A stretch of DNA of 64,000 nucleotides from assembly GCA_965247035.1 (NCBI GenBank), contig CBDFGJ010000003.1:1252840-1316839 (forward strand). The letters are read 5' to 3'. Position 1 is the first letter of the stretch. Every line of letters starts with the position of its first letter. Of this stretch, positions 6,393-59,800 are shown piece after piece. Position numbers and translations under genes: made by a program. The notes under the pieces were generated by a model. The model worked only from the letters and a program-made list of their open reading frames with translations, was not told where the DNA came from and searched no databases. The stretch is from Candidatus Azophilus sp. GTDB taxonomy: Bacteria; Pseudomonadota; Gammaproteobacteria; Pseudomonadales; Azotimanducaceae.

Positions 6393-6471
6393 GGGCTGAC
6401 TCCCTCGCCAATCCAGAATTGGGTCAGGGGCAATCTGCCACGGTCGGAGAGTGAATGAAAGCAGTCGATCA

Positions 6472-7575: not shown

Positions 7576-7668
7576 ACTATTGGCTTGGCGCATTTCCTCA
7601 TGGACCGCACAGCAACCCTTTGCCTTTGGGTCTTGCGGCGCCAAGCGAGTTGGCGGCGTCGTTTCATC

Positions 7669-25375: not shown

Positions 25376-25448
25376 CGTGCGCAGGCAGTGGCATCAGGCT
25401 CATTCGCACACTTTGCTTGTGCGTCGGAACAATGGTTGAGGTGGCGCC

Positions 25449-29551: not shown

Positions 29552-29677
29552 GTGAACAAAATAACCACCGACATACACAAAACAATCACCAACATTGGTT
29601 TTTGCCTCGGTGCTACTGGCAGCGATGAGCGTCGCCCCCCCCCAGCCAGCCACGCAGCAGAGAGGCAAGTGCTATGA
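29552..29677 (+). other. Upstream leader ORF: degenerate, frameshifted copy of the downstream gene's start and signal peptide; its stop overlaps the main ATG (ctATGAat)
   Basis: gtgaacaaaataacc...aaaacaatcaccaacattggtttttgcctcggtgctactggcagcgatgagcgtcgcc aligns with the real 5' end atgaataaaacaatcacccaattcgttttcgccgcggcgttgctggtggcgatgctggcgtcaacc. Its stop TGA (29675-29677) overlaps ATG 29674-29676. It is in the same frame as track ORF 29411..29677. Confidence 0.6.
29635..29643. repeat. Homopolymeric C9 tract 31 nt upstream of the autotransporter start codon, inside the leader ORF
   Basis: Counted directly: gtcg CCCCCCCCC agcc. Confidence 0.95.
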
Positions 29678-38511: not shown

Positions 38512-38543
38512 AGCGAGGCTCCGCCCGGGGCTTCGCTTTTTTT
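38512..38543 (+). terminator. Rho-independent terminator after the autotransporter gene
   Basis: Stem AGCGAGGC (38512-38519) pairs with GCTTCGCT (38530-38537), including one G-U pair. The loop is GC-rich and a T7 run follows (38537-38543). Confidence 0.7.
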
Positions 38544-38727: not shown

Positions 38728-38835
38728 ATGAACAAGCTAATCACCCGATTCGCTTTTGCCTCCGCGTTACCGGTAGCAATAGGTATCCCCCCGCACACAC
38801 AGCGGGGGCCAGGCATCATGAAAAAAGTGCTATGA
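38728..38835 (+). other. Upstream 35-codon leader ORF resembling a decayed signal peptide; its stop overlaps the giant ORF start (ctATGAac)
   Basis: ATG 38728 opens MNKLITRFAFASALPVAIGIPPHTQRGPGIMKKVL*, with TGA at 38833-38835 overlapping ATG 38832-38834. The N-terminus MNKLITRFAFASAL parallels the real MNKIVTQFALVSAL. It contains a C6 tract, (CA)4 and a G5 tract. Confidence 0.6.
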
Positions 38836-41800
38836 ACAAAATAGTCACTCAATTCGCTCTCGTCTCGGCGTTGCTGGTGGCGATGATGGCATCAATGGGC
38901 ACCGCCCATGCGCAAACGCTGCGTATCACTGGCTCCCTGACCCCATCGTTTACCGAGAATGTTGCCCGCGCCGCGGCAGTGTACGCCGCGAATGTCGACG
39001 GCGTCAGGGTCACCAGACCTGACTGGTCGGTCAGAGGTGAGAATGCGCACTTATTCTCGATTAGTCGTAGGAATGATGGTAACGGCTTATTGACCTTTAA
39101 CGAGCCGCCGGACTTTGAAGCCCTCGGTGCCACAGTCGAGATAAACGTCATCGCCACCCGGTCTGTCGGGGGTTCACTACAGACAGCTTCGCGGTCGGTA
39201 TTGGTCAAAATCATCAATGTGGATGAACCGGGCAGAGTCAACATCGCAGGTGAGTCACGGCTTGGGGCGACCTTGACCGCCACAGTGGATGACCCGGATG
39301 GTAATGTCAGAGACATCACTTACCAATGGTATCGAACATCGAGAGTCGATGTAACGGCGTTCCGCCTCATTGATGGTGAAACCTCCCGCACCTTCACGAT
39401 AAGGCCCCCAAGCGTCGATTTTAGCGGCGACCGCGACCGAAACATCCAAGTCAGGGTCGAATATAAGGACGTTCATGGCGACCAGACCGCCACCAGCCAC
39501 CAAGTCATCCGGGCAGAAGCAATAAGTTTCCCTTACTCCACAATCCACACAGCCCACACAATTGAAGCCTCGGGGCCCGCCAGAGTTAGCCCGGGGCAAT
39601 CTTATACCTACCGCGTGGGTGCGAATCAGGTCGTAGGAGTGAATACCCATGCGGTGGGCATATTCAGCAACATCAGTCGCCAGGGGCAGATCGTTGCCCG
39701 GCATACCGATTGCGCAGCACATAAGCCTTTGTTTTGTCTGCTTACCACCAGCACCAGCGCCTCTGACCGGTACTCCAATGCGAGGTTGACCTTCCGGGAT
39801 GGTGCATCGGACTACTTGACTCCCTCCTCGACCCGTCAATCCTGGACCTACACAATCACCGTCAGCCGCGACGTCGAGGATGGCGACACCATCAAACTGA
39901 TCTACGCCCACAGAAACACGTTGGCGGCGCCGAGCGGTCTTGGTATGGAGTTTTTCGACATAGTAGCGGTGGTTCCTATCCCTGAACCGCCGCGCAATCT
40001 GGCTGTGCGCGGCGCGGATGAAGAGGTGACGCTCAGTTGGAATGAGCCGAGCAATGTCGCAGATGCGGGCGTCCTTCGTTATGAATACCAACAAAGCACA
40101 ACTCCAGGAAACTTCAGCGGTGGCTGGAGTGCCATTGAAAGTGGCGATTCGATCAGCAACCTGAGAAACGGCGTCAGATACTACTATCAGTTGCGCGCCG
40201 TAACCACGAGGGGTGCGGGGGCCATGGTCTATGGTAATGCTGAGGTAGGACCCAGACCGGTCGTCACCTTTTTTCAATTGCCGACCGACATGACCGCCAC
40301 CATGGACTCCACGGCGACCATGAGATTCGCCACGCCAGTGCGTGGCTTGAGCCGGAATGAAGCGGAATGGAGGACTAATATCAGCACTACCAATGCCCGT
40401 ATCGTCAGCATATACAATGTTGATCAGGACAAAACCTACCGAGGTTCCGGTGCTGCACCGCTCGGTTTTGACGGGCTCACCGGAAGTTACGAAGTCACCC
40501 TTAGACCGCTTGCCGCCGGCGGAGTAAGCCTGGTCGTGCATAGCAGTTCAGTATTCAGCGCAGCGGGGCACCCAAGTACTATCTTTAGTGCCAGTGGTAC
40601 TGCGCTTTCGATGCCGCCGCCCGGCGTGCCGGTCAACTTCGCTGCGCACGCCGGCGATGGGAGCATCGGTTTGACCTGGGAGCAGCCGGTCACGGGCGGC
40701 GTGGTTGTCTCTTATCGCACCGAGTGCGTGGCTGGCGACAGTCGAAGCGTCAAGGACACACCAGAACTGGGCGTTATGCACACCAGCCTGGTCAACTCGA
40801 GGGAATACCGATGCACCCTGAGTGCGCAAAACTCGCAAGGAGAAAGCGCCGAAGCGGTTGCCACGGCACGCCCGCTTGTTGGTGAAGGCGTGGTGGTAGA
40901 TGGGACGAACTTTGACCCTGCGGGCGCCCGCGTATTCACACTCCGAGGCCCGGTCACGATTAGAGCCGGCGGTGTCTATAGATTTGAATTGAGCAAGCCG
41001 TTCGGCGATGTGGAACAAGATGGGCAACAAAGCGTGGCTTTGTATAGCGAGAATAATGCCGATTCCATCGCACTCGGCGGCAGTGGCTGTGGCAGTCGTT
41101 TCTGCTTCTCAACCAATTCCCCGGCCGGTGCCTACTCCGGCTTGGATGGTCAAGCCGACTCGGCCGGTAATAACCTGCAGGAAGGCGGAGCCTTCTGGAT
41201 ATTAACCCTCCATGTTGGCGAGGATGTCACCGAAGGCGAGCAGGTTTTCATCGGCATGCGAGAGCATGGCACATCGGAAGGCAACCGGCTTGGGCGGATG
41301 CTTACCCTGAATGTGGAGGTTGCCCAGCCGTCGCCGCCGCGTAATCTGCGGGTGATTAGTTCATCCGGACGCGCCACTTTGATTTGGGTGCAACCGGAAA
41401 GCGATGGCGGCACACCAGTCACTCGCTATGAATACCGCGTCAGCCAGAGCCCGGGAAACTACCCCCCGGACGCAGAGAGCAGATGGATGGGGATTCCTGA
41501 CAGCGCCTTCAAAATCCAGCATGTTGTGCCGAACCTGCAAAACAACACGCGCTATTACTTTCAAATACGTGCGGTCAACGTTGTGGGGGCCAGCCCGCCG
41601 TCTGGCGAGGTAAGCGTTGTCATCAGAGAAAGGCCCGAACTCGCCGTGCCATTTACTCTACCGGATGACATGATCGCGGGCAGAGCGTCCACGGTGACCC
41701 TCACCTTCGTGTCGCCGGTCAATGGTCTCGGCGTAGACCCTGCGGATTGGGTATCCGACTTTCTCGGCAGCAACAATGTGGTGATCAACAGCGTGCGCAA

Positions 41801-44800
41801 TGTTGACCAGAACAAAACCTACAACGGTCAAGGCACCGCGCCAGTTGACTTTGACCGCGAGACTCAAAGTTATGTCATCACCTTCACGCCACAGATATTC
41901 GGCACAACCAGCGTTGAGATCGGCATAGGCGGTGTGCGCATCGGTGGTCTTGACGGCGCGGCCGCGGATTACAATGAAATTCTATTCCTCGCCATCAACA
42001 ATTCTGGTGTACCGCTGCCACCCGCCGCCCCGACTAATCTTATCGCTCGGTCTTTTAGCACAGAGGATATTGAGCTCTATTGGGACCGTTCCATCGGTGA
42101 CAGTCCGGTGATTGATTACTCTGCGACCTGCACCACAACCGCCCCGTCAATTGATCCACCCTTAACCCATACCGCAACCACCACCGATACCGAGGTTGTC
42201 ATTCAGGGCGCGCGCCCTGATGCGGTATACGAATGTCGTGTGGTTGCTCGCAACCCGGGCGGCTCCAGTGGTTTTGCTTCGGCAATCATACGACCAGGCT
42301 TTACCGGAGAGCATACTGAAGACTATAGAGATGGCGGGTTCGGCATCCAACTCGTCGGCCACAGAACTGTCTTTGCGGGCACCACCAATAGATACCTTCT
42401 CCGCAAACCTTCCGGCGACATCACCAGAAACGATGATGTCGCCATCGGCATATACAGCAGGACGGCGGGCAAGGTTGGGCTCACCGGGCATGGTTGCACT
42501 TCGACTTTTTGTATGGAAGTCGACTCCACTATTCCCGGCACCCTCTTTACCGGCAGAGGTTACGCTGACGGTGCCGCCCAGTATCTGGATGCGGGCGGAA
42601 ATTTCTGGACCATTGAAATTAAGATTGCTGCAGATGCTCGCGACGGCGAAACGTTTGACTTCGCCCTAGTGCAAACGCCACGCGGCACGGACAAAACAAC
42701 ACGACTGTTCAGCGTCACCGTGCAAAGCTCGGCACCCCTCTCACCTGTATTGGCGAGCCCGGTCGCCGGGGATAAACAAGTCCGGTTGTCATGGCAGTTG
42801 AACTCCGTTCAGGTTGGTTCGACCATTGCCACCGAGTATCGCCAAACCACGACTGCGGGATCATATCCCCGCCAAACCAGCCCCTGGACACGCATCTCCA
42901 ATAGTGCCGCCAGCCGCCTGTCCTACACCGTCGGGGGGCTACGCAACAACATAAACTACTACTATCAGGTGCGCGCAATCAACGAGGTTGGTCCCGGCAC
43001 ACCGAGTAATGAGGTTTCAGTGCATGCCGGACCGAGGCCCCAACTCTCCGGCACCTTCGCCTTGCCGGACACAATGATTGCAGGCGACGAATACGATACG
43101 ACTGTCACCTTCGCCACGCCGGTCAACGGTCTTGGTATCAGCCCGTCAGACTGGGTGAGTGATTTCGCCTCATCTTCTAATATGCGGATTATTCGCGTAC
43201 ACAATGTTGATCAAAATAAAACCTACAACGGGCTGGGTAACGCGCCAGGGGGATATTCTGCCGAGACCAGAAGTTACACCATCACCTTCTCGCCAACCAA
43301 CCGAGGCTTTGCCATATTGACAATAGGAGCGGGAGCGGTGCGCATCGGTGATACCAATGACTTTTTCAGTACTCAGACCTTCAGCGCCAGAGAGGTCGCC
43401 GGAGCGCCGGAACTGCCGGGTACCCCCACTGATTTTGGAGCCATCCCCGGCGACGGCAGCATCACCCTGTTCTGGGGAGCACCGACCAGCGGTGGCACCC
43501 CCACTAGATACGAGACGAAATGCTCTGGCCCGACTTCTCCGGACACAACTACGGATACGGAAACCTTCACCCGCACCTTCACCGGGCTCACGAATGACAG
43601 GGAATATCGTTGCCAGGTGTTAGCCCACAACTCGGCTGGCAACCAGGGCACGTCGGAAATAACCGTTTGGCCACGCGTACTGGCTGCCGGCGTGGATGCG
43701 AGAACGGAAGATATTGCGGTGCGTGGCGTCACGTTTAATCTGGACGGTCCGACCACAATCCGACCCGGGAACACCTATCGTTATGAACTGCGCAAGCCTG
43801 GCGGCGATATCAGTGGTAATGAAAGCATCAGTTTTGCTATCAATTCCGACGACCAAAGCGTCGGCGCCGGCGGTGAGGATAACGCAGGCAATGATAACGG
43901 TTGCCGTGATAGCCGGTTTTGTATATCTACAACGAGCCAGATTGCCGCAACAGACCACCGTGCGATTGGATACACTGACAGTGCGGGATGGTTTTTGCAG
44001 GGAGGTGGAAATTACTGGGAATTTGATCTCGGGGTTAAATCGGCAGCGGTTAATGGCGATCAGATAGTCTTTACCATCAGAGGTCCGGCAGGCGATACCG
44101 ATACTCAAGCGATACTCACCGCCACCGTCGAACTTGCGTCCTCCAGCGCGCCGATCAATCTACGGGCGACCAGCGCACTCAACGGCGTCAGACTGATATG
44201 GGATGCGCCGGCTGACTTCGGTGGTCGAGCCATCAGTCGTTACGAGGTTCAGTATCGGCAAAGTAATACCAACGATGCTTGGAGAAGTGCCGACGCCGAC
44301 CTCACCGGCACCCGCACCCGCACGATCAGTGGTCTGGTTAGCCGACGGGCTTATGTTTTCCGCGTGCGCGCCATAACTTCCGTGGGTGTTGGCAACTGGT
44401 CCGATGAAGTCACCAGGGAGGCGGGAACAAGACCAGTCCTGACTTTTGACGCCACGCCGTCCAACACCGCTGTCGGTGCGCAGAGCAGGGTGGTGCTTGA
44501 GTTTGCAACTCCGGTTGAAGGTCTCGGTGTCAACCCGACTGACTGGATAGATGATTTTGCCGCTAGTACCAATGTGGACATCGACCGCGTGGAGAATGTT
44601 GCGGAAGGGGTGACCTACGACGGTGTTGGCGAGCCGCCGGCAAATTATCACCTCCCGACCAGATCATTTGTCATCTACTTCACACCACTTGCTCTCGGTG
44701 CTGCGGATATCACCATCCGCACGGGCGGAATACGAAGCGAACTTTTCAATGATGCACCGATTATCCTTGGCAGCACGGTGGATCGACTGGGGAGACCGGA

Positions 44801-47800
44801 CGCTCCGGTTAATTTTGTCATAGTTCCGAGCGACCAGACGCTCACTTTCAACTGGGACGCACCGACCACCCGCACGGTCATCCACAGATACGAACTCAGA
44901 TGTGATAGCCCCAACAGTGCCGTCCGGGTCACGGCCATTGACGCGCCAGCCACCACCGCCACCTTCACGGGCCTTATCAACGGGGATGAATATGTTTGTG
45001 ATCTCAATTCCGAAAACACCCACGCTGGCACGACTAAAGACAGCGGAAATGTAAGACGCAGAGGGCAACCACTGGAGGCCGTTGGTGTCTCGGAAAACGC
45101 GGAGCGGAGTTATCCCAATGGCAACGTGAGGTTCACCGTCAGCGGTGAAACTACTCTGCAGCCGGGCAGCACCTACACCTACGAACTCAGGAAACCCAAC
45201 GGCAACATTCATGGGGATGATGTATTTGCCGTCGGCATACGCAGCAAGACCGCCAACCAAGTGGGATATGGCAGCGCCTGCGGCGATACTTTTTGCCTTG
45301 TAGTCGAGCCGGGCCGCGCAACCTCGGACACGACGCCTTCGGGTTATAACGATGTTGCCGAGAGATTTCTGGAACAAGGCGGGGAGTTCTGGCAAGCCAC
45401 CGTTCTGGTCTCCCCAACCGCACCGACTGGGGCATCGGTTGAACTCTTCACCAGATTTGCCGGCACCAACACTGATGCGGCGGAGTCTCACAGAGCGTTC
45501 ATCCTCACCGTGAAACCCGCAAGCGTGGATATAAATTTCTCGCCCATCGGCAATGCCGGGCCAAACCAAATCCTGCTCAGCGGTACCCGGGTGAGCCTGA
45601 ACGGCAGTGCTTTTGATCAAAACAACGATCCCCTGACCTATAACTGGGAACACACCAGCACCGATGGTGTTGAGCCAACCACGCCAATCAGCATCATCGA
45701 TAGCACCAAAGCCGGCGCATCCTTCATCGCGCCGATCGTGGACAAACCCACCCAATATCGATTCACCCTGAGGGTGGCAGATGCCGACACTGCGCACTCC
45801 GACCGTGTAGACATAGTAGTGGCACCGAGTGGCTCGATTGTCATCCCCGAATACATGTCGGCATTCACCATTGCCGGTTCGTCAAATCTGGGTAGCGGGT
45901 TGAATACTTTCACCGTCAAGCGCACCTACGGCAATTACTCCAGCCAAATCCGCGCAACCCTCAGCACCGATTCGTCCACTCCTAATCAGTATTCCGTGTT
46001 TGTGGACGGAAAGGCATACGGCCGTATTGAAGATACTGACACGCTCGGGGCATTTGTCTGGAAGATACCACTGCCATCAAAAAATCAATGGCGAATCGGG
46101 ATTGACCCAACCTCCGGGGCGCGGGTGGGTGACACGCTGACCCTGGGCATGGCAACCGATAACCCCGCTCGCTACTATCAACCAACCAGGACGCTGCGTT
46201 ATCGCACGCAAGTAAGTTTGATTGCCAACGCCGGTGCCGATCAACTCGCGGCGAACGGTGATCGGATAACTTTGGATGCAAGCGACAGTAGCGGCGATTC
46301 GGTCGCTTATTCCTGGCGACAGACCGGCGGACACATGGTTACGCTGACAAATGCGGACACTGCCACGCCATTTTTCATCGCACCGCGCCTTGGTGAAATG
46401 ACCGATCTGGTATTTGAATTGACGGCGACAGACGCCGCCAGCACCACCGAAACCGACACCGTAATCGTCTCGGTGGTGCCGCCCGGTGCAATCATCATCG
46501 ACGACCCCGAACGTGCGGCAGGGCAATCGGCGGTGTTCACGCTGGAAGGTCCCACCACGCTGATACCCGACACTCCCCAGACCTACACCTTGCGACTCAT
46601 TCATGGTGGCTATACCGAATCAGGCACTCTATCCGAGCAGATTGGCGTGGGTATATTCAGCGATGTTGCCGCCGATGACAGCAAGTTCTCGCTCGCCATA
46701 GATCCGGTGGTTGCCGGCGGGGTGAACCCAATAACCTGTAATAGTTGTGGCGTATTTGCTTCGGCCGGCGGGCTGGCGGCGAACTCGCAAAACATCTGGG
46801 AGCTCACCGTTACCGCATCCGGCGCGGCGGTAGAAGGCGATCAGGTCCAATTCGGTTTGGTCACCTTTACCCAGCCGGCGCAAGCACATGTGCCCACCAT
46901 GACGCTGACTACCGGGAAGAGCGCGCAGAATAACCCGCCTGCCATTCTCGGTGTAACGACAGTGCAGTATGCCGAGAATGACAGCGTCCTCGTAGCGGAG
47001 TTCACCGCCACCGATGCCGAGCGGGATGACATCACCTTCGGTTTGACCGGTCTGGATGCGGGTTTCTTTGAAATCGGCAACGGCGGTGATGACCACGGCA
47101 AATTATTTTTCCAGGTCAACCCGGATTTTGAGAATCCGGACCGCTTTGACATCAACGCCGGCGCCACGGACAACACCTATCAGGTAACCATTACTGCCAC
47201 TGATAACGGCAGCCCGCAGGCGGTCGGCAACCATCCGGTGGTCATCACGCTCTCCGATGTCAGCGAGCCGGGCACGGTTACCGTCACCGGCAACAGTCAA
47301 GTCGGGCAGGAGTTGACCGCCACTTTGCAAGACGGAGATGCGATTCAAGGCGAAGTGAGTTGGCAATGGCAACGCAGCAATGTGCCGCCTGTCTATAACG
47401 ACATCGACAGTGCCACCGAAGCGATCTACACTCCGACCAACGACGATCAAGGCCGAATCCTGCGTGCCAGGGCGAGTTACACCGACAGCCATGGATCTCA
47501 GAGTGCCGCCGATTTGTCCAGAAGGATAGTGAGCGCAGTCGATCTGGTTGCAACGATCGCTGAGTTGGGCACACCCACAGCCGGTCAGCCGGCAAGCGTG
47601 AGAGTTGATTTCACCTCGATGGTTACCGACTTGACGCTGGAAAGATTCTCTGCCACCAACGCCAACCTGAACTCCCTCGCCGGTAGCAACACCGAGTATG
47701 TCGTCGTCTACACCCCGGTCACGGAGGACGCGGTAACCCTGAGCCTTGCCGCCGATTTCGCCAAAAACAGGGATGGCACCAGCAACCCGGCAACGGCAAG

Positions 47801-50800
47801 CGGCACGGCGGTGATGGCAGTCGCCGAATCATCATCGGCCATCCCGAGTTTTACCGCCGAAGCTACCTTTGTCGGCATCACCACCGGTGAGTGGAGTTAT
47901 GACAACGAATTCAAAACTGCCATAGCGGACTTGATACGCAGGGGGGCGCAATCGGCTGATGTCAGGATAAACGGCCTCCGTGCTACCGCCACTGCACTGA
48001 CGGTGGAATTTGAAGTAGTAGCAGCCGATGTCACCCGACTCAACGCCCGTTTGTTGGCATACAACGCCCTGCCTGCCGCAGCATTCAGCCGCACCTTGGC
48101 TAAGGTCGCCGCCGGTGCCACCAGCGTCACCACCACTATCGCCACAGCATCGCTGCTCACCGCCAACGACAAGCCGGTCGCCAGGGCGGGTTCTAACCAA
48201 ACGGTATTGCAAGGCGAAGGCGTGACGCTGGACGGCGGCGCCAGCACCGACTCCGATGGCAGCATCACGACCTACGCCTGGCGGCAAATCAGCGGCACCG
48301 TGGTTGCCTTGACTCGTGGAGCCACCGCCAGTCAGTCGGTATTCACCGCTCTGCACTCTCCCGAGACTTTGATTTTTGAACTGACCGTAACCGATAACCA
48401 TGGCGACATCGACAGCGAGCAAATAATGGTCACCATCCTGCCGGACGCTGATGCGAGCCTGTCCGGTTTGACCATTTCCTCAGGCACCCTGGCTCCCTTG
48501 TTCTTGTCCACCCATCCGACCTATACCGCGGAAGTGCCGATTGGAGTGGAAAGAATCACCGTTACACCGACCGTGAACAACGATGGTGCAACCCTGATGG
48601 TGAACCGCGTTGACTTGGAAAGGGGCAGTGCCAGCCAAGCGATTCCGCTGACCGTCGGCGTCCCCGCCGAGGTTGTTATCAAGGTCACCGCCGAGGACGG
48701 CGAAGCATCGCAAACCTATACGGTCACCGTCACCCGCACATCTAACGCGGGCCCAAGAATCACCGGCACTAGACAGGTAGGATATAACGAAAATCACGAT
48801 GGTACTGTGGCGACCTACACTGCGGTCGATGTCGAGGGAGATGCCTTTGCCTGGTCGCTCGGCGGTGAAGGCGCGCCCTTCTTCTCAATTGATCGCGGTG
48901 TCTTGACTTTTAGCGACCCACCGGACTTTGAATACGCGGAACACGACAACACCTACGACATACTCATCACCGCCACCGAAACCAATCGAGTTCCGCCGGC
49001 GGTGAGCGAACTGCCGGTAACGATCACGGTCATCAATGTGAATGAACCGGGCAGCGTCATCGTCACAGGTGATTTGCGGGTCGGGGCAACCTTGACCGCC
49101 GAACTGGAGGATCCGGATGGTGGTATCCTTGAAACCGAATACCTCTGGGCACGCCAGCCGGTCAGCGCGTCGGGTTTCCAGAGGATTGCCGGGGAAACGA
49201 ATCAGACCTATACCCTGACCACAGACGATATCAACCACATAATAAGATCCAGAGTTAATTATAAAGACAGATTTGGTGGCGCGTTTGTTACCATCGACAC
49301 AGAAACCGAAGCCATACTCAGCCGGGAATACGACACTGGCAGAAATACCAACAGCGGAGATTTCACTATCAAAGCCGAAGGTCCCTCCACGATTAGACCG
49401 GGGGAAAATAATTTCACCGTGACGGTAGTGCGAGGCTCTTACTCTAGTTCGGAATTTCATGCGGTGGGTATCTACAGCGATGTCGCTGTCTCCGGCGAGG
49501 AAACCATTGCCCGTAGTGTGGATTGTGGGCGGCTACAGCCTTTATTTTGCCTCCGTTCCAGCAGTAGCAGTGGCATCACCGAATATTCCAATGCGGGATT
49601 GACCTACGCTGATGGTGCGGCGGACTATTTGAATGTCACCGGCTCTCGTAATAATGCCTCCGGCGCAACCTGGACTTACACCATCATTGTCAGCCCCAAG
49701 GCACTGCATGACCAGGTCATTAGCCTGGCTTACGCCACCACTGACGAGTTTGTTCAGGGCAGCACTGCCTACAAGTTTTTCGACCTGACAGTGGAGGTTC
49801 CGGTTCCTGAAGCACCGCGCAATCTGGTTGTGCGCGGCGACGATGAAGAGGTGACGCTCACTTGGGATGCGCCGGCAAATGTCGCAGATGCGGGCGTCCT
49901 TCGTTATGAATACCGACAAAGCACAATACCAAGAAACTTCAGCGGCGTCTGGAGTGCCATTGAAAGTGGCGACGCCATCTTTAATCTAGAAAACGGCATC
50001 AGATACTACTATCAGGTGCGCGCCGTAACCTCGAGGGGAGAAGGAGCTGCCGCCGAAGCGAGCGCGGAGGTAGTACCCAGACCCGAAGTCGCTTATTTTG
50101 AGTTGCCGACCGACATGGCCGCCACCATGGCCGCCACGGCGACCATGACATTCGCCACGCCGGTGCGTGGCTTGAGCCGAAATGAAGCGGAATGGAGGAC
50201 TAATATCACCACTACCAATGCCCGCATCGAAAGTATACGCAATGTTGATCAGGACAAAATCTACCGAGGTATTGGTGCCGCACCGCTCGGTTTTGACGGG
50301 CTCACCAGAAGTTACGAAGTCACCTTTAGACCGCTTACCGCTGGGCGAATAAACCTGGTCGTGCATAGCAGTTCAGTATCCAGCGCAGCGGGCCACCAAA
50401 ATGTTGTGTTTAGTGCCAGTGGTATTGTGCGCTCGATGCCGCCGCCCGGCGTGCCTGCCAACTTCGCCGTGCGCGCCGGCGATAAAAGCATCAGCATGAC
50501 CTGGGAGCAGCCGGTCACGGGCGGCATGGTTGCCACTTATCTCACCGAGTGTGTGTCCGGCGACAGTCGAAGCGCCATGGACACATCAGAACTGCGCGTT
50601 ACGCACACCAGCCTAATCAACACCAGGCAATACCGATGCACCCTGAGTGCGCGAAACTCGGAAGGCGAAAGCGCCCAAGCGATTGCCGAGGCACGTCCGC
50701 TTGTGGATGAAGGCACGGCGGTAGATGGGACAAACTTTAACCCTGCGGGCAACCGCGTATTCACAATCCGAGGCCCGGTCACGATTAGAGCCGGCGGTGT

Positions 50801-53800
50801 CTATAGATTTGAATTGAGCAAGCCGTTCGGCGATGTGGAACACGATAGGCAACAAAGCGTGGCTTTGTATAGCGAGAGTAGTGCCGATTCCATCGCCCTC
50901 GGCGACAGTGGCTGTGGCAGTCGTTTCTGCTTCTCAACCGATTCCTCGGTCGATGCCTACTCCGGCTTGGATGGTCAAGCCGACTCGGCCGGTAATTACC
51001 TGCAGAAGGGCGGAGCCTTCTGGATGTTAACCCTCCATGTTGGCGAGGATGTCACCGAAGGCGAGCAGGTTTTCATCGGCATGCGAGAGCATGGCACATC
51101 GGAAGGCAACCGGCTTGGGCGGATGCTTACCCTGAATGTGGAGGTTGCCCAGCCGTCGGAGCCGCGTAATCTGCGGGTGATCGGTTCCTCCGGACGCGCC
51201 ACTTTGATTTGGGTGCAACCGGAAAGCGATGGCGGCACACCGGTCACTCGCTATGAATACCGCGTCAGCCAGACTGCAGGACAGTATTCAAACGCCCAGG
51301 GCAGATGGATGGCGATTCCTGACAGTGCCTTCAAAAACCAGTATGTTGTGCCGAACCTGCAAAACGGCAGACGATATTACTTTCAAACGCGTGCGGTAAA
51401 CGTTGCGGGGCCGGGCCAGCCATCGGTTGAGGCAAACGTTGTCATCAGAGAAAGGCCCGAACTCGCCGTGCCATTTACTCTACCGGAGGACATGATCGCG
51501 GGCAGAGCATCCACGGTGACCATCACCTTCGTGTCGGCGGTCAATGGTCTCGGCGTAGACCCTGTTGATTGGGTATCCGACTTTCTCGGCAGCAACAATG
51601 TGGTGATCAACAGCGTGCGCAATGTTGACCAGAACAAAACCTACAACGGTCAAGGCGCCGCGCCGAGTGGCTTTGATCGCGAGACTCGAAGTTACGTCAT
51701 CACCTTCACGCCACAGATATTCGGCATAACCAGCGTTGAGATCGGCATAGACGGTGTGCGCATCGGTGGTCTTGACAGCACCATCGGGTATGGCAATGAA
51801 AACCTGCTCACCGCCATCAGCCATTCTCTGGAACCGCCGCGACCCTCCACCCCCACTGGCCTGGTCGCTCGACTAGACGGTGATGACGATATTGCTCTGG
51901 ATTGGGATCCTGCACCCCAAGACGACACTGTGGTTGATTATCTGGTGACCTGCACCACTACCAACTCGGCAATTGATCCGCCCTTAATCCATACCGCAAC
52001 CACCACCAATACCGAGGCTGTCATTGTGGACCCGCGCCTTGCAGCGGAATATGAATGTCGCGTGATTGCCCGCAATCAGGGCGGTTCCAGTGGTCATGCT
52101 TCAGCAACAATCGTGCCACGCTCATCTGAAATAATACCGGATGAAACCTTGACCTATTCGGACCCGGATAGCAACTTTGCCATCCAATTGAGCCGTGGTC
52201 CCAGAACGGTCTCTCCGGGCGAAACCTATCGATACCATCTCCGGCTTGCCGACGGCTCTATCGATGAGGTCACCCATGTCGCCATAGGTATATACAGCAG
52301 GACGGCGAATAAGGTTGAACTCATTGACAATGATTGCTCTTTGACTTTCTGCATGGATGTTGCCAACACCGGCGCTAGCGGCACCCTCCTTACCAACAGA
52401 GGTTACGCTGACGGTGCCGCCCAGTATCTGCAGAGGAGCATGATCGGCAATAACTGGACCCTTGTAATTGAGATTGCTGCTGATGCGGCTGACGGTGAAA
52501 CATTTGACATCGCCGTAGTGCAAACGCCACGCGGCGTGGACAAAACATCACCACTGCTCAGCGTCATCGTGCACGCCGAGCCACCCCTGCCACCTATTTT
52601 CATGGATCCGGTCGGTGCGGATGGCGAGGTCACGTTGGCATGGGGGCCGAACACTGAAAAAAACAACGCGATTGCCGGATATGAGTATCGCCAAACCACG
52701 ACTGCGGGATCATATCCCAGCCGAACCAGCCCCTGGACACGCGTCTCCAACAGCGCCGCCAGCAGCAGAGTCTGGAACATCACCGGGCTACTCAACAATG
52801 TGCGCTACTACTACCAGATACGTGCGATTGGCGAGACCACTGGCGCCGGCTCGCCAAGCGCAGAGAAATCAGTCGCGGTTGGACCCAGGCCCCAACTCTC
52901 CGGCACCTTCTCCTTGCCGGGCGGAATAGTTGCGGGCGAAGAAGCCAATACGACTGTCACCTTCGCCACGTCGGTCAACGGTCTTGCTATCAGCCCGACG
53001 GACTGGGCGAGTGATTTCCGCAACTCTGTTAATACGCGGGTTATTCGCGTACGCAATGTTGATCAAGATAAAACCTACAACGGGCTGGGTAACGCACCAG
53101 AGGGGTATGCTGCCGAGACCAGAAGTTACACCATCACCTTCTCGCCAATGAACGACGGCAATACCAGTTTGACGATAAGCGAGGGAGCGGTGCGCATCGG
53201 TGACAGCAATGACTTTTTCAGTGCCCGGCAATTCTCCGCCCGCGGGAGTGCCAGTAGGCCGGCAAGACCGGGTGCCCCCATCGATTTTGGAGTCATTCCC
53301 GGCGACGGTAGCGCCACCCTCTTCTGGGGAGCACCGACCAGCGGTGGCACCCCCACCGAATACGAGGTGCAATGCGTGGTGGGCTCGACTGGTACGGGGA
53401 CTCGGACGGATACGGAAACCTTCACCCACACCATCACCGGGCTCACCAATGACAGGGAATATGTTTGCCATGTGGTATCCGTCAACTCTGGGGGCAGCAG
53501 CCCGCGCACACCGGAAATAAGCGTTTGGCCACGCGCACTGACTGTTGGCGTGGATGCGACAACGGAAGATATTGCGGTGCGTGGCGTCACGTTTAATCTG
53601 ATCGGTGCGACCACACTCCGACCCATGCGCGCCTATCGTTATGAACTGCGCAAGCCCACCGGCGATATCAATGGTGATACAAGCATCAGTTTTGCTATCA
53701 ATTCCGCCGAAACAAGCGTCGGTGCCGGCCGTCAGGATGACCCAGGCGATGATAACGGTTGCAGTAGCCGATTTTGTATATATACAACGAACCGCACCGA

Positions 53801-56800
53801 GATTGCCAAACTAGACCACCGTCCGATTGGATACACTGATAGTGCAGGATGGTTTTTGCAGGATGGTGGAAATTTCTGGACATTTAGTCTTGAAGTTAAA
53901 TCGGAAGCCGTTAATGGCGATCAGATAGTCTTTACCATCAGAGGTCCGGCAGGCGATACCGATATTCAAGAGATACTCACCGCCACCGTCGAAATTGTGG
54001 CTTCCGGCGCACCGACCAATCTGCAGGCGACCAACCAGGGCAACGACATCAGACTGTCATGGGATGAGCCCGATGACAATGGTGGTGAAAGCATCACTCG
54101 TTACGAGGCTCAGTATCGGCAAAGGAATACCAACGACGCCTGGAGTTCTGTGAGAGCCCCAAGGACCGACAACCCCAACGTCGTGATCACGAATTTGGTT
54201 AGCATGCAGGGATATGTTTTCCGCGTGCGCGTCATAACCTCGGTGGGTGTTGGCATCTGGTCCGACGAAATCGTCAGGGCGGCGGGAACAAGACCAGACC
54301 TGACTTCGCCCGCCGGCTTGCCGGACGACATGGCTGTCGGTGCGCAGAGCAGGCTGGTGCTTGATTTTGCAGCCCCGGTCGAAGGTCTCGGCATCAACCC
54401 GACTGACTGGATAGATGATTTTTCCGCTAGTACCAATGTGATCATCGAGCGCGTGGAGAATGTTACTGAAGCGGTGACCTACGATGGTGTTGGCGACCCG
54501 CCGGCAAATTTTCACCTCCCAAGCAGATCATTTGTCATCCACTTCACGCCCATTGCTCTCGGTGTTGCGGATATCACCATCCGCACGCGCGCAATACGAA
54601 GAGAACTTTTCAATGATGTACCGATTGTGCTTGGCGGCGAGGTGAATCAACTGGGCAGACCGGACGCTCCGGTTAATTTTGTCGTAACTTCGGGTGCCAA
54701 TACGCTCATCCTCAACTGGGACGCACCGGCAACCGGCACGGTCATCCACAGATACCGGGCAAGATGTGTAGATTCCAGCAGAGACGTCGAGCGGAGCGCG
54801 ACCATTGACGCGCCAGCCACCACCACCACTTTCACTGGCCTGACCAACGGAGAAGACTATTTTTGTGAACTCTTTTCCGAAAACACCCACGCCGGCACGA
54901 CTAAAAACAGCGGGAGTGTGAGACGTAGCGGGCGACCCCTGGCGATCAGCGGCGCCTCCTCGTCATCGGATCAGAGTTATCCCAATGGCAACGTGAGGTT
55001 CACCGTCAACGGTGAGACCACGCTGGATCGGAATGGCGACTACACCTACGAACTCAGGAAACCCGGCGGCAACATTCATGGGGATGATGTATATGCCGTC
55101 GGCATACGCAGCAAGATCGCCGATCAAGTGGGGTATGGCGACGACTGCGGCAATACTTTTTGCCTTGAAGTCCACACTGGCCGCGAAATTTCGCACACGC
55201 CGCCTTCGGGTTATCTTGATGTTGCCGAGAGATTCTTGCAACGAGGCGGGAATTACTGGCGCATCACCGTGCAGGTCGCCACATTTGCACCGACTGGGGC
55301 ATCGGTTGAACTCTTCACCAGATTTGCCGGCACCAACAATGATGCGGCGGAGTCTCACAGAATGCTCTTTCTCACCGTGCAGCCACCGGGTGCTGATGCA
55401 AATATCTCGCCCGAAGCCGATGCCGGTGAAGACCAAATCCTGCTCAGCGGTGTCCAAGTGAGCCTGAGCGGCACTGGCTTCGACCAGAATGGCGACGAAC
55501 TGACCTACGAGTGGGAACACACCAGCACCAATGGTGTTGAGCCAAGCCAGCGGATCAATATCACCAATAGCACCGAAGCCACCGCATCCTTCACCGCACC
55601 GAGCGCGAGTTCGACAGACGCCATTGAGTATGAGTTCTCCCTGAAGGTGGAAGATGCCACTGCTGCCGACTTTGACACAGTATCCGTTGTAGTGGTGCCG
55701 GATGGTTCAATCATCATTCCCCAACGCAACCTGGCATTCGCCATTGAGGGACCCACAACACTGGAACTGGGTGATAATCAATTTACCCTGATTCGCCTCT
55801 ATGGAGGTTACACCAACGTTCACGCTGGCAATATAGAAACTCAGGTCGGGCTGGTCCTCAGTACCGCACTGGAACCAAATCTGGCACGCGCATTTGACCT
55901 CGTTCCGCCTGCCGGTTTTTTCAGCAGTAAAAATGTGGTTGAAAACGGAGCCTTCGGCAGGTATGCCGTGGAAGCAGTGCTTACATCCAACATCTTCGGG
56001 CGCGTTTTCAAGGTAAACGCCAAGACAAGCGCAAGAACGGGCGACCTCCTGACTCTGGGCTTGGCAACCTATCAACCGGATCGCTTCTGGCAACCGACCT
56101 TGGCATTGCGTTATCAAGAACTGGAGGAATTAGTCGCCGACGCCGGTGCCGATCAAATCGTGCCGAGCGGTGCGTCGGTAGCGTTAAACGCAGGCGACAG
56201 CACCGGCGATTCAGTCGGTTATGTCTGGCGACAGACCGAGGGGGCTCCCGCGGTTACGCTGACAGGAGAGAACACTGCCACCCCGACCTTCACCGCGCCG
56301 GCTGTGACCGCAATGACTGACCTCGTATTTGAGGTGACGGTGACCGATAGCACGACCAGCAGTCAAACCGACACCCTGACCATCTCGGTGGCGCCGCCCG
56401 ATGCGATCATCATCAACCACCCCGGTCGTGCCGGCGGACAAGCGGCGGTGTTCACGCTGGAGGGTCCCACCACGCTGATACCCGGCGCCCAGCAGGACTA
56501 CACCCTGAACCTCATCCACGGTGCCTATACCCAGGCAGCGATTCGGTCTGAGCAGATTGGCGTGGGCATATTCAGCGATGTTGTCACCGATGGCAGCAAG
56601 TTCTCGCTCTCCATAGACCCGGCAGTTGCCGCGGGTCTGGCTCCACTAACGAACTGTGGTTGCGGCGAATTTACTTCCGCCAGCGGGCTGGCACCGAACG
56701 TGCAAAACACCTGGGCTCTCGCCGTCACCGCAACAAACGAGGCGGAAGAAAACGATCAACTCAGGCTCGGTTTGGTAACTTTTGCACCGACAGAATTAGC

Positions 56801-59800
56801 CCATCAACCGTTTTTGACGCTGATCACCGGGCAATCTGAAGCCAACAACCCGCCGGCAATTAGCGGTGGACAAACACACAACTACGCCGAGAACAGCGAT
56901 GCCGTAGTGGCGACCTTCGCCGCCACCGATGCCGAGGGAGATGCCTTCACCTTCGGTTTGACCGGTCTGGATTCGGGTTTATTTGAAATCGGCAACAATG
57001 ATGCCGAGGGCGCCATCAATGATGCCGTGGGTGCTTTGATTTTCAAACGCATGCCGAATTTTGAGGATCCGGCACGCTTTGATTCCGTCACCGAGATCTT
57101 TGACAATACCTATCAGGTAACCATTACTGCCACTGAGGACGACGAACCGACGGTGGTCGGCACCTATTCGGTGGTCATCACGGTCACCGATGTCGACGAG
57201 CCGGGCACAGTTACCATCGCCGGCAGCGGTCAAGCCGGGCAGGAATTGACCGCCACTTTGCAGGACGAGGATACGATTGCAGGCGAAGTGAGTTGGCAAT
57301 GGCATCGCGGCAACCAGCCCGACAATGGCAGGGATAACCCCATCAACAGTGCCACCGCCGCGGCCTACACTCCGACCAGCGACGATCAAGGCCGAATCCT
57401 GCGTGCCAGGGCGAGTTACACCGACACCCATGGTGCTAAGACCGCCTCCGCCGTGACCGAAGCGATAACCATGGAGAACATACTCCTGGCAACCATCGCT
57501 GAGTTGGGCGTATCCACAGTGGGTCTGCCGGCGAGCGTGAGAATTAGTTTCTCGGCAGCGGTTACCGGCTTGGCGACCGGCCACTTCGCCATCACCAACG
57601 CCAGCATCGCATCCCTCGCCGGCAGCAACACCGAGTATGTCCTGATTTACACCCCGGCCGGGCCGGGCAGGGTAACCCTGAGCCTGGCAGCCGATAGTGT
57701 TCAGGATAGTGAGCGTAGAGGAAACGTTGCAGCAACGGCAAGTGGCACGGCAGAGGCGGAAGTAGCGATATCATTGCCGACCATCCCGAGTTTCACCGCC
57801 GCCGTCTCCTTTGACGGCATCACCACCGGTGAGTGGAGTTTTGACGACCAATTCAAAACGGCCATAGCGAGTTTCATCACCGGAGTAACGGCCGCTGATG
57901 TCAAGATACTGGGCCGCAGTGCCACCGCCACTGATCTGGCGGTGAATTTTGAAGTAGTAGCACCCGACCAGGAAAACATTGACGCTCATGTGCAAACATA
58001 CAACGCCGTGGCCACTGCAGTATTCAACCAGACTTTATCTGCAATCGTCGCCGCTGCCGCTGCCACCGGTGTTACCACCACTACCGCCATGCCGGGCGCC
58101 ACGCTGGCAAGCACCGACGCGACCTTGTCCCGCCTGGCGGTTTTCCACAAGGATGGAAGTCAGGCAACCGTGACCCCGGCACTTACCGCCGGCACATTTG
58201 ATTACGCCGTGACCCTGCCGTTTAGTTCGGATACCTTTACCTTCACGGCGCGGGGTGACGGCGACGCAACCATAACCACCCAGGGGCAGACATTTCCCAG
58301 CGGCCAGTCCAGCCCTGATATTGCCGTGCCGGTTGGCGCCACCACCGTGAATTTTCTGGTAACCGCCGAGGACGGCAGCAGCACGCAACCCTACACCCTC
58401 CACGTCACCCGCACCGCGGTGGCAACTGATGCGACCCTGTCCGACTTGATTATTTCGGCAGGCATCTTGTCGCCTGAATTCGATTCTGCCGCCGCCGAGG
58501 GTACGGCTTACGCCATCACCGTGGGGCGTGAGGTGTCAAGCGTCACGGTTACGCCGACCGTGAATAACGCTTTCGCGAGGGTGACTGTGAACAACGTCGC
58601 GGTGATCAGTGGCCAACCCTCAAATGATATTGCCCTGAACCTGGATGCGGAGACCAGCATCACCACCACCGACATCACCATCGTGGTCACCGCCGAGGAC
58701 GGCACCACGAGAAATTATGTGATAACCGTCACCCACATATCGAACTTCCCACCGATGCTTGACGGTAATCCTGCGCGGGATTATCTGGAGACCGATACCG
58801 GCTCTGTGGATTATAAAATAACAGATGAGAATGCCAATGACGAAGACAGAGCCAGTTGGGTAATCAGTGGAGGCATGGATGCGGCTCTCTTCCGCATCAG
58901 GGCTATCTCCACAGACACGGCCAGCGTGACTTTCAAGCGCCAGCCGGACTTTGAAACCCCGCACGATGCAGACCGGGATCAAGTATACGAGGTCACCCTG
59001 ACCGCCACCGATGCCGGCACGCCGCCGTTGAGTGTCACTGTGGAGGCAAGGATAACGGTCACCGATGTGGATGAGGATGGCGCGGTGATTATTGAAGGCA
59101 TCGCGCAGGTCGGCAAGACCCTGGAAGTCATCCTGACCGACCCGGATGCTGTCACCCAGACCAACTCGAATGGCACGGTTGCTGCTGCTGACATCACCCA
59201 TAAATGGCAAAATTCGCCGTCCGACAGCCCCGACTACGCCGACATCAGCGGTGCCACCGAAGCAACCTACACCCTGAAAGAAAGTGATGCCGGCAGGACC
59301 ATTCGGGTCATGCCCACTTATACCGACACGCACGGCTCCAAGACCCTCACCAGCGCGGAGACCAACGCCGTGGCACTCGAAACCGCATCCGCCGCACCGG
59401 GCATCGCCTTGGTGGACACCGGTTTTAGTAACAGCGATGGCATCACCAACAATGGTGTGGTGAATGTGACGCTGGCGAACGATTTTGTTCTCGACAGGGA
59501 CACCTGGCATTACTCCACCGATGGCAGTGCCCCCGACACCGCCGGCACCAACCCCGATTCCGGCACCGCCGCCAGTTTTGATTTGGGCGACGAGGGCTTG
59601 GACTTGGCAGACGGCACCTATCAAATCCGCGTCCGCCAGACCATCGATGGTACCGTGTCTGTTATCGCCTCTTTGCAGATGACGCTGGACCAAACCGCAC
59701 CGACGGTTGTGACCTTTGACGACCCCGCCGAAGGCGTGTTTGGGGTGCCGCAGTTGCTCGACGTCACCTTCTCTGAGCCAGTAACGGGTTTTGCATTTGG

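What the first reader, a model, noticed from the sequence alone, without database searches (positions are those of the whole stretch)
38930..58740. ~9.8-kb internal duplication (two super-repeats) within a single coding sequence
Seen: the whole domain string from 38.9 to 48.75 kb recurs at 48.75-58.74 kb. The string starts with cadherin, a YQW-type beta-sandwich and a Cys domain. Next come four four-domain modules, then PKD, an unassigned domain, a second PKD and an unassigned domain with CxxC. It ends with cadherin, a beta-sandwich, an Ig-like domain, an alpha/beta module, PKD and a cadherin-like beta-sandwich. The offset drifts from 9,819 to 9,916 bp. The paired antisense and off-frame ORFs in the track (for example 41008/50833, 41561/51383, 43348/53200) echo it. 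Inference: a very large in-frame segmental duplication doubled the length of the stalk. Such repeats are also a classic source of assembly error and of length polymorphism between strains.
Basis: seen in the sequence. Interest (0 to 1): 0.7.

Follow-up and report, generated by a model that had tools for sequence, protein, structure and literature searches.

The report
Duplicated 9.8-kb block in adhesin gene
A giant bacterial surface-protein gene really does contain two diverged, in-frame copies of a 29-domain, 9.8-kb block, which is a genuine old duplication that lengthened the protein rather than an assembly error, but it is an ordinary way for such adhesins to grow.

Summary
One open reading frame starts at ATG 38832 and has no stop before the window ends (at least 8,389 aa). 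It holds two adjacent colinear copies of a ~3,280-aa unit, A at 38922-48755 and B at 48756-58742. They align as a single BLASTP match at 58% aa identity, with an 81% nt core of 6 kb.

Each copy has about 29 beta-sandwich domains. These include four ~470-aa modules (Cys-sandwich, FN3, Big_12-like, FN3). Each module is 66-74% identical to its positional partner in the other copy, but only 27-38% identical to its neighbours. The duplication is therefore nested on an older module array.

The copies are too different to be an assembly artefact: the longest exact shared stretch is 132 bp. Both are kept open: about 67 stop codons would be expected by chance and none is seen.

Silent divergence varies about six-fold along the unit. 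This points to later gene conversion of the core.

An exhaustive search of 1.84 billion cluster representatives found one protein with the whole module, P0220. It carries the unit once, and it is more diverged at silent sites from A and B than they are from each other.

The neighbouring paralogue is a Sec-dependent autotransporter, so the giant is probably one too.

This is a real feature and a new member of a known kind. Interest is modest.

The parts
38832..63998 (+). Giant adhesin-like ORF. It starts at ATG 38832 and runs off the window end with no stop (at least 8,389 aa).
   Evidence: Searches show the stop-free frame. Searches give the Pfam domains (fn3, K319L-like PKD, Cadherin, Cadherin-like, Big_12).
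38832..38912 (+). Predicted Sec signal peptide MNKIVTQFALVSALLVAMMASMGTAHA|Q. It was read by eye; no predictor was available.
   Evidence: One search gives the sequence. It is near-identical in type to the signal peptides of the upstream paralogue and of homologues P0008/P0023.
38922..48755 (+). Super-repeat copy A (aa 70-3347 of the frame that starts at 38715).
48756..58742 (+). Super-repeat copy B (aa 3348-6676).
39528..45107 (+). Copy A module array: four ~470-aa modules, each Cys beta-sandwich, FN3, Big_12-like, FN3.
   Evidence: The AlphaFold model has pLDDT 85.4 and shows four beta-sandwich domains. The PDB fold matches are titin, fibronectin and contactin FN3 tandems.
45114..45530 (+). 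Copy A fifth Cys beta-sandwich domain, which closes the array.
   Evidence: hmmsearch with the Cys-domain profile, E=6e-51.
49335..54974 (+). Copy B module array (four modules).
54981..55400 (+). Copy B fifth Cys beta-sandwich domain.
39949..45873 (+). Homogenised core of copy A. It is 81% nt identical to 49774-55746 and reaches 95% in 40983-41283. dS is 0.06-0.66, against 0.8-1.3 at the ends of the unit.
49774..55746 (+). Homogenised core of copy B.
45555..48737 (+). Copy A distal third: PKD, unassigned, PKD, divergent Cys-type domain, Cadherin, Ig, Big_12, unassigned (3030-3150), PKD, Cadherin-like.
58743..63998 (+). Non-duplicated tail with Cadherin x3, Big_12, Bact_surface_Ig-like, fn3 and PKD. 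It begins with the same cadherin type that begins A and B. Part of it (60043-61598) is 75-77% nt identical to 31298-33150 in the upstream gene.
29674..38403 (+). Upstream paralogous adhesin gene (2,909 aa) with the same type of signal peptide and a C-terminal autotransporter beta-domain.
   Evidence: One search gives PF03797 at E=1.6e-7, 31.8 bits against a cut-off of 26, matching nt 37318-37671.
38512..38537 (+). Terminator-like hairpin (11-bp stem plus a T run) between the two adhesin genes. The giant gene is probably its own transcription unit.

Best explanation
The region is part of one very large gene. It encodes a Sec-exported, rod-like cell-surface adhesin of an uncultured gammaproteobacterium (Pseudomonadales in the sense used for MAGs).

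Shown by the analyses:
- A block of about 29 beta-sandwich domains (~3,280 aa, 9.8 kb) was duplicated in tandem and in frame, cut at domain boundaries. The block itself already contained an older array of four ~470-aa modules.
- Both copies have been kept open by selection.

Inferred from the divergence pattern:
- The ends of the unit have diverged to about 40% aa identity.
- The central ~6 kb has later been partly homogenised between the copies, most likely by intragenic gene conversion.
- The duplication, or its last homogenisation, is younger than the split from the only known homologue, which has one copy.

Inferred from the known size of such domains:
- The functional effect is a longer stalk. 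About 29 extra domains at 3.5-4.5 nm each add roughly 100-130 nm of reach.
- The duplication also gives a second, diverging set of potential binding surfaces.

Inferred from the adjacent paralogue and from homologues:
- The protein is probably anchored by a C-terminal type Va autotransporter barrel. The C-terminus lies outside the window and was not seen.
For: Duplication:
- One colinear BLASTP HSP, aa 70-3446 vs 3348-6789, 58% identity.
- BLASTN core of 81% over 6 kb.
- Identity to the positional module partner (A1-B1, A2-B2, A3-B3, A4-B4) is 70, 74, 66 and 69%, against 27-38% for all other module pairs.
- The junctions fall at domain boundaries.

Both copies are under selection:
- There are 2,478 nt differences in 9,732 aligned sites. 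That would give about 67 stop codons if the changes were unselected, and none is present. All indels are multiples of three.

Mosaic age:
- dS is 0.06-0.25 in 40.5-42.0 and 43.2-45.5 kb, against 0.8-1.3 at both ends.
- Divergence at four-fold sites ranges from 7 to 41%, chi2=61.8, df 16, p=2.6e-7.

Single-copy comparator:
- An exhaustive HMMER search of one module against 1.84e9 cluster representatives found only P0220 with the full module. All other hits matched only the FN3 part.
- P0220 is colinear with A (51.8%) and with B (54.0%) over about 2,710 aa.
- Its locus L013 holds one module array.
- Four-fold silent divergence is 0.17 for A-B, 0.36 for A-P0220 and 0.38 for B-P0220. A-B is the lowest of the three in every 600-nt window.

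Fold:
- The module model has pLDDT 85.4 and shows four beta-sandwich domains. The best PDB matches are titin, fibronectin and contactin FN3 tandems.

Secretion route:
- The giant has an N-terminal signal peptide.
- The paralogue 29674-38403 has the same kind of signal peptide plus a PF03797 autotransporter beta-domain.
- Homologues P0001, P0004, P0008 and P0023 end in the same barrel-type domain.

Taxon:
- SecY is 84-93% identical to SecY of MAGs named Pseudomonadales or Gammaproteobacteria.
Against: - No reads were available, so depth and junction-spanning support are untested.
- The C-terminus is outside the window, so the autotransporter anchor is only an inference. The single-copy homologue P0220 ends in a different ~145-aa segment with no Pfam match.
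- dN/dS is high, 0.74 overall and near 1 in much of the core. The amino-acid sequence is therefore weakly constrained or diversifying.
- In the first Cys domain, copy B is closer to P0220 (59%) than to copy A (41%). This needs either asymmetric divergence of A or a more complex history.
- Only one outgroup locus exists, and only 10 kb downstream of its gene could be read.
- The word-indexed protein search failed to return P0220 at all. Its negative results about closer relatives are therefore unreliable.
Confidence: 0.85

Rival explanations
1. Assembly artefact. A single-copy region, or two strain variants of it, was written twice in tandem by the assembler.
For: The sequence probably comes from a metagenome-assembled genome: its closest relatives are MAGs and no exact copy of its proteins is on record. 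Large repeats are a known source of misassembly. No reads could be examined.
Against: - The copies differ at 25.5% of aligned nucleotides and 42% of residues.
- The longest exact shared stretch is 132 bp, and only 36 shared 25-mer runs exist.
- Strain variants would not be this far apart. The A-B distance is about half the distance to a different organism's homologue.
- Both junctions are in frame and at domain boundaries.
Confidence: 0.03
2. Fusion of two neighbouring paralogous genes. A and B were once separate tandem adhesin genes, and the first gene's terminator, stop and barrel and the second gene's signal peptide were lost.
For: The locus does hold tandem paralogous adhesin genes, 29674-38403 and the giant, with 74% identical leaders. 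The two genes have also exchanged segments (60043-61598 vs 31298-33150).
Against: There is no remnant of a barrel, linker or signal peptide at the A/B junction. The Cadherin-like domain of A is followed within 6 residues by the cadherin domain of B. The same adjacency recurs at the junction of B with the tail. The single-copy homologue starts its unit directly after its own signal peptide.
Confidence: 0.05
3. One duplication of uniform age with no gene conversion. The mosaic identity would reflect only different evolutionary rates of different domains.
For: dN differs greatly between domains. The ends are the least constrained at the protein level (dN 0.5-0.67). At 40% aa identity, dS estimates are noisy and alignment-dependent.
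Against: Divergence at four-fold degenerate sites within conserved residues should be little affected by protein constraint. It still varies from 7% to 41% along the unit (p=2.6e-7). Low-dS patches are interrupted by a higher-dS patch at 41.97-42.57 kb, as expected for separate conversion tracts.
Confidence: 0.15
4. Decaying or non-functional gene. The duplicated region is drifting neutrally.
For: dN/dS is about 0.74 overall and at or above 1 in several core windows.
Against: There are no stops or frameshifts in 25 kb, although about 67 stops would be expected from the observed differences. Structural residues are invariant across the 12 modules: Trp, Tyr, the Cys pairs and Gly. AlphaFold models of the module and of the Cys domain are confident.
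Confidence: 0.03

Closest known systems
Type Va (classical) autotransporter adhesins with long beta-sandwich passengers, as in the adjacent gene 29674-38403 and database homologues P0001, P0004, P0008, P0023
   Same: They share a Sec signal peptide of the same sequence type and a passenger made of cadherin, Cadherin-like (PF12733), K319L-like PKD, Big_12, Bact_surface_Ig-like and fn3 domains. The giant lies next to a paralogue with a PF03797 barrel.
   Different: The giant's C-terminus is not in the window. Its passenger (at least 8,360 aa) is longer than any homologue retrieved (at most 5,710 aa). The four-domain module array is absent from those homologues, whose best local identity is 33-42% over 9% or less of the query.
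P0220 (2,890 aa; ENA assembly ERZ26167708, contig ctg195067_3x_l; locus L013)
   Same: It is the only protein among 1.84e9 cluster representatives with the full module. It is colinear with both A and B from the first Cys domain through the cadherin and Ig domains (52-54% identity), with the same 4 modules plus a 5th Cys domain.
   Different: It carries the unit once. It lacks the N-terminal cadherin and Ig pair and the last about 400 aa of the unit. It ends in a ~145-aa segment with no Pfam match. It is followed by a DDE transposase gene and another large adhesin gene.
Titin A-band super-repeats (blocks of 7 and 11 Ig/FN3 domains duplicated as units)
   Same: There is a nested hierarchy: a fixed order of FN3 and Ig-like domains forms a block, and the block is duplicated as a whole. 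Each domain is then most similar to its positional counterpart in the other block (my own knowledge of titin; the fold matches to titin FN3 tandems are).
   Different: Titin is a eukaryotic, intracellular, exon-based protein with many copies. Here there are two copies of a 29-domain block in a secreted bacterial protein. There is no evidence of common descent beyond the shared folds.
Giant RTX/T1SS repeat adhesins (LapA, SiiE, the Marinomonas ice-binding adhesin MpIBP)
   Same: They also have a long extender built by tandem duplication of beta-sandwich domains, which projects binding domains away from the cell (my own knowledge).
   Different: Those proteins lack a cleavable Sec signal. They use C-terminal RTX repeats and a T1SS signal, and they repeat a single ~100-aa domain at high identity. 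Here there is a Sec signal, no GGxGxD motif in the 8,428 visible residues, and a 3,280-aa repeat unit in two diverged copies.
Giant genes of uncultured bacteria (Omnitrophota and others; bioRxiv 10.1101/2023.11.21.568195) and the Giant1-5 surface proteins of Apilactobacillus kunkeei (PMC12863079)
   Same: [quoted passage not shown]
   Different: They come from different phyla and have different domain sets and anchoring. No sequence relationship was found.

Membership tests
In-frame tandem segmental (intragenic) duplication | Colinear similarity over the whole unit, far above chance | tested here: met
   There is a single BLASTP HSP of 3,489 columns at 58% identity, E=0, and BLASTN hits with bit scores of 5,690 and 1,170.
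In-frame tandem segmental (intragenic) duplication | The copies are adjacent, on the same strand and in the same reading frame, with no intervening stop | tested here: met
   B starts at the codon after A ends (48755/48756). The frame is open from 38715 to 63998. All offsets are multiples of 3.
In-frame tandem segmental (intragenic) duplication | Sub-units pair by position rather than by type, showing that the block was copied as a whole | tested here: met
   Positional module partners are 66-74% identical. All other module pairs are 27-38% identical.
In-frame tandem segmental (intragenic) duplication | A single-copy state exists in a relative | tested here: met
   P0220 and its locus L013 carry one module array. 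Silent divergence A-B (0.17) is lower than A-P0220 and B-P0220 (0.36-0.38). Only one relative is known, and only 10 kb beyond its gene was readable.
In-frame tandem segmental (intragenic) duplication | Physical reality in the genome (reads spanning the junctions, even depth) | not testable with these tools
   No reads were available. Indirect evidence only: the longest exact shared stretch is 132 bp.
Type Va autotransporter | N-terminal Sec signal peptide | tested here: inconclusive
   MNKIVTQFALVSALLVAMMASMGTAHA|Q has the n-h-c layout and an AxA site when read by eye. It matches the paralogue's signal peptide. No signal-peptide predictor was available.
Type Va autotransporter | C-terminal 12-stranded beta-barrel translocator (Pfam PF03797) | not testable with these tools
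   The C-terminus is beyond base 64000, and the source contig was not found in any collection. The feature is met in the adjacent paralogue.
RTX / T1SS giant adhesin | GGxGxD nonapeptide repeats and no cleavable signal peptide | tested here: not met
   There is no GGxGxD in the 8,428 visible residues, and a signal peptide is present. The extreme C-terminus is unseen.
Assembly collapse or expansion artefact | Near-identical copies with long exact shared stretches | tested here: not met
   The copies differ at 25.5% of aligned nucleotides, and the longest exact match is 132 bp.

The most novel reading that the evidence does not exclude
The ~470-aa four-domain module, and in particular its ~140-aa Cys-containing beta-sandwich, may be a previously undescribed domain family. 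The sandwich has an invariant C...FC motif and no Pfam model. Its PDB fold matches are only weak (TM 0.48 or less): cohesin-like modules, an adhesin CLIPPER domain and a reeler domain. The family would be confined to one small lineage of probably host-associated Gammaproteobacteria. On this reading the two 9.8-kb copies are kept as a conversion pair. Patchy intragenic gene conversion together with dN/dS near 1 would continually generate mosaic surface variants, acting as a built-in diversification device for a symbiont adhesin rather than a mere length increase.
Probability: 0.12. Interest if true: 0.55.

Novelty: new member of a known kind. Interest (0 to 1): 0.3.

Why it matters
The finding gives a clean, datable example of how bacterial giant surface proteins grow. 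First a four-module array formed. Then the whole 29-domain block was copied in frame. Then the core was partly re-homogenised. How giant genes elongate has been named as an open topic (bioRxiv 10.1101/2023.11.21.568195).

There are also practical consequences. Annotators and assemblers should expect this locus to be fragile in short-read assemblies, and gene callers and protein databases miss it. Neither the giant protein nor anything close to it came back from the word-indexed protein search, and that search also failed to return the one true homologue, P0220.

The module's Cys beta-sandwich has no family assignment and is a candidate for structural study.

None of this would surprise a specialist in repeat adhesins.

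Tried and rejected
1. Looking for the source genome or close strains to compare copy number.
- Exact look-ups of the 2,909-aa paralogue and of SecY found nothing.
- Scans of genome contigs and metagenome contigs with copy B plus the tail found only relatives at 24-35% identity.
- Loci of the two nearest SecY relatives (93% identity) are not syntenic after rplQ.

2. The word-indexed protein search returned no close homologue for copy A, with the best hit at 33-42% identity over 9% or less of the query. It returned nothing at all for the Cys-domain alignment. It missed P0220, which is in the collection. I therefore gave these negatives no weight.

3. Looking up P0008 failed. The locus of P0023 is unrelated in context.

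4. I tested whether the tail is a partial third copy. It starts with the same cadherin type and contains a segment colinear with the last third of the unit at about 28% identity. It has no module array, so I rejected it as a third copy.

5. I considered a cohesin/dockerin reading of the Cys domain and of the P0220 C-terminus. The fold matches are too weak (TM 0.36-0.40), and the C-terminus has no Pfam hit. I did not adopt it.

6. The long antisense ORFs 39255-40541, 44664-45797 and 58620-59693 have no domain hits. I rejected them as genes.

7. A PDB sequence search with the paralogue's barrel region found nothing. Pfam did recognise that region.

Full report
OBSERVATION

The window has about 60% G+C. 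One reading frame is free of stops from 38715 to the window end at 63998, a run of 8,428 codons. For the base composition of this stretch the chance of that is about 1e-133.

The first ATG is at 38832. It opens a typical signal peptide, MNKIVTQFALVSALLVAMMASMGTAHA|Q.

Self-BLASTN of the window gives an off-diagonal line at about 9.8-9.9 kb. The main hit is 39949-45873 vs 49774-55746 (81.3% over 5,993 bp). A second hit is 46137-48144 vs 56049-58089 (73.4%).

At the protein level one colinear HSP joins aa 70-3446 to aa 3348-6789, with 58.4% identity over 3,489 columns. In a global alignment the offset drifts from 9,807 to 10,008 bp, always by whole codons.

The long antisense ORFs have no Pfam match.

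ANATOMY

Copy A is 38922-48755 and copy B is 48756-58742. They abut at a domain boundary. The Cadherin-like sandwich that ends A is followed within a few residues by the cadherin-type domain that begins B. The same adjacency recurs where B meets the tail.

Each copy holds four ~470-aa modules. A module consists of:
- a ~140-aa Cys-containing beta-sandwich with an invariant C...FC motif;
- an FN3 domain;
- a Big_12-like domain with the motif PV.GL...DW;
- a second FN3 domain with two conserved Cys.

A fifth Cys sandwich closes the array, and a divergent one follows the second PKD domain.

The AlphaFold model of one module, built on an alignment of 12 modules, has mean pLDDT 85.4 and is all-beta with four sandwich domains. 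Its PDB neighbours are titin, fibronectin and contactin FN3 tandems.

The Cys domain modelled on its own has pLDDT 86. It has only weak neighbours (TM 0.48 or less): cohesin-like modules, an adhesin CLIPPER domain and a reeler domain.

The distal third of copy A reads as follows:
- PKD, aa 2281-2369;
- an unassigned segment;
- PKD, aa 2506-2587;
- the divergent Cys-type domain;
- Cadherin (weak), aa 2751-2846;
- an Ig domain (weak);
- Big_12 (weak), aa 2953-3029;
- an unassigned segment, aa 3030-3150, with no Pfam hit;
- PKD, aa 3158-3241;
- Cadherin-like PF12733, aa 3252-3341.

By my count this makes about 29 domains per copy.

After copy B comes a tail of at least 1,752 aa with Cadherin x3, Big_12, Bact_surface_Ig-like, fn3 and PKD. 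It is not a third copy, because it has no module array.

The only CxxC in the protein is in copy A.

ORDER OF EVENTS

Modules are 66-74% identical to their positional partner in the other copy. They are only 27-38% identical to any other module. The four-module array is therefore older, and the block was copied as a whole.

Divergence between A and B is strongly mosaic.
- Nucleotide identity is 95% in 40983-41283 and about 53-60% at both ends and around 45.7-46.3 kb.
- Nei-Gojobori dS is 0.06-0.25 across much of the core and 0.8-1.3 at the ends.
- At four-fold degenerate sites within conserved residues the difference ranges from 7% to 41% (chi2 61.8, df 16, p=2.6e-7).

Silent sites should not feel protein constraint. 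I therefore read this as an old duplication whose core has since been partly homogenised, most simply by intragenic gene conversion. Rate heterogeneity alone remains a weaker alternative.

SELECTION

The copies differ at 2,478 of 9,732 aligned nucleotides. About 2.7% of random single-base changes in these codons create stops, so about 67 stops would be expected if the changes were unselected. None is present.

dN/dS is nevertheless high, 0.74 overall and near 1 in much of the core. This fits beta-sandwich spacer domains, in which only the fold-determining residues are constrained (invariant columns). It may also reflect diversifying selection. I could not separate the two.

ARTEFACT CHECK

The longest exact stretch shared by A and B is 132 bp, and only 36 runs of 25 or more identical bases exist.

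Copies this different cannot be collapsed or expanded by an assembler as a repeat. They are also far too different to be strain variants. The A-B silent distance is about half the distance to another organism's homologue.

Read depth and spanning reads could not be examined.

RELATIVES

The word-indexed search with copy A returned only generic giant adhesins, with local identity of 33-42% over 9% or less of the query.

An exhaustive HMMER search of one module against 1.84 billion cluster representatives found a single protein matching the whole module. This is P0220 (2,890 aa, 5 matched stretches). All other hits matched only the FN3 part.

P0220 is colinear with A aa 260-2931 (51.8% identity) and with B aa 3522-6244 (54.0% identity). 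Its locus L013 comes from a 59-kb ENA contig. It holds one module array, then a DDE transposase gene, and then another large adhesin gene that resembles the tail of the giant.

At four-fold sites the divergences are 0.17 for A-B, 0.36 for A-P0220 and 0.38 for B-P0220. A-B is the lowest in every 600-nt window of the shared region. The duplication, or its last homogenisation, is therefore younger than the split from that lineage, and a single-copy ancestor is plausible.

There is one oddity. In the first Cys domain, copy B is closer to P0220 (59%) than to copy A (41%). This needs either asymmetric divergence of A or a local replacement.

P0220 was never returned by the word-indexed search, although it is in that collection. 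The absence of closer relatives in that search therefore proves little.

The genome contigs and metagenome-contig scans found only relatives at 24-35% identity.

WHAT THE PROTEIN IS

The gene just upstream (29674-38403, 2,909 aa) is a paralogue. It has the same kind of leader and signal peptide (74% nt identity over 29584-29760 vs 38739-38918; sequence). It has a passenger of Bact_surface_Ig-like, PKD and Big_12 domains. Its C-terminal domain passes the Pfam threshold for the autotransporter beta-domain (PF03797, 31.8 bits against a cut-off of 26). That domain is 65-67% identical to the C-termini of homologues P0001 and P0008.

A terminator-like hairpin at 38512-38537 separates the two genes.

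The giant has the signal peptide. It has no RTX motif in the visible part. It has exchanged sequence with its neighbour (60043-61598 vs 31298-33150, 75-77% nt identity).

I infer that the giant is also a type Va autotransporter adhesin. Its C-terminus lies beyond the window, so this inference is unverified.

SecY is 84-93% identical to SecY proteins of MAGs named Pseudomonadales or Gammaproteobacteria. Several distant adhesin homologues come from MAG projects that include sponge-symbiont names, for example Candidatus Poriferisodalis. A host-associated lifestyle is only a guess.

MECHANISM

Shown: two in-frame copies, kept open, of a rod of beta-sandwich domains.

Inferred from the known dimensions of FN3, PKD and cadherin domains (about 3.5-4.5 nm each): the duplication adds roughly 100-130 nm to a stalk that projects distal domains from the outer membrane. 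It also supplies a second, diverging set of surfaces.

COMPARISON AND NOVELTY

Block duplication of a fixed domain order is what titin's super-repeats show. Extender regions built by tandem duplication are standard in giant bacterial adhesins such as LapA, SiiE and MpIBP. Elongation of giant genes by duplication of repetitive domains has been raised as an open topic.

Here the unit is unusually large (29 domains, 9.8 kb) and is present in only two diverged copies. The module with its Cys sandwich is known from only one other protein.

This is a new member of a known kind. It is real, well documented and of modest interest.

Noticed in passing
window 24537-24625 (+), with 24719-28113: A tRNA-Ser (anticodon TGA) lies directly before tssE (24719-25375), tssF (25449-27071) and tssG (27058-28113), which are followed by the adhesin genes. 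No other type VI secretion genes are in the window. The two nearest relatives (93% SecY identity) have unrelated genes after rplQ. G+C drops from about 0.61 to about 0.57. The block looks like an island inserted at a tRNA gene.
   Followed up: partly
window 35797-37020: There are 4.9 tandem copies of a 249-bp unit at 93% identity inside the upstream autotransporter gene. They encode Bact_surface_Ig-like domains. This is a much younger repeat expansion than the 9.8-kb one and a more likely site of strain length variation.
   Followed up: partly
window 60043-61598 vs 31298-33150: The tail of the giant gene and the middle of the upstream paralogue share about 1.5 kb at 75-77% nt identity. This suggests sequence exchange between the two adjacent adhesin genes.
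   Followed up: no
window 28581-29336: A small ORF (251 aa) carries one Bact_surface_Ig-like domain and part of a PKD domain. It is 66-68% nt identical to parts of both large adhesin genes. It is probably a leftover adhesin fragment.
   Followed up: no
window 7143-7586: A 216-bp segment is directly duplicated in tandem at 99% identity. It overlaps the 5' end of ORF 6472-7272 (-) and the spacer before the alcohol-dehydrogenase-like gene 7669-8670 (-). Tandem Repeats Finder did not report it.
   Followed up: no
L013 10743-12395 and 12986-20452: In the only homologous locus, the single-copy gene P0220 is followed by a DDE_Tnp_1 transposase gene and then another large adhesin gene (2,689 aa) that resembles the tail of the window's giant gene (44% identity). 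The arrangement could be a once-continuous gene split by an insertion sequence, or it could be two genes.
   Followed up: partly
database behaviour: The word-indexed protein search did not return P0220, either for copy A or for an alignment that contained P0220's own segments. Yet P0220 is in that collection. Negative results from that tool for long repeat proteins should be treated with caution.
   Followed up: yes
window 59339-59795 vs 61775-62237; 62775-62965 vs 63051-63247: There are further internal repeats within the tail of the giant gene, at 78% and 72% nt identity. They were not analysed.
   Followed up: no
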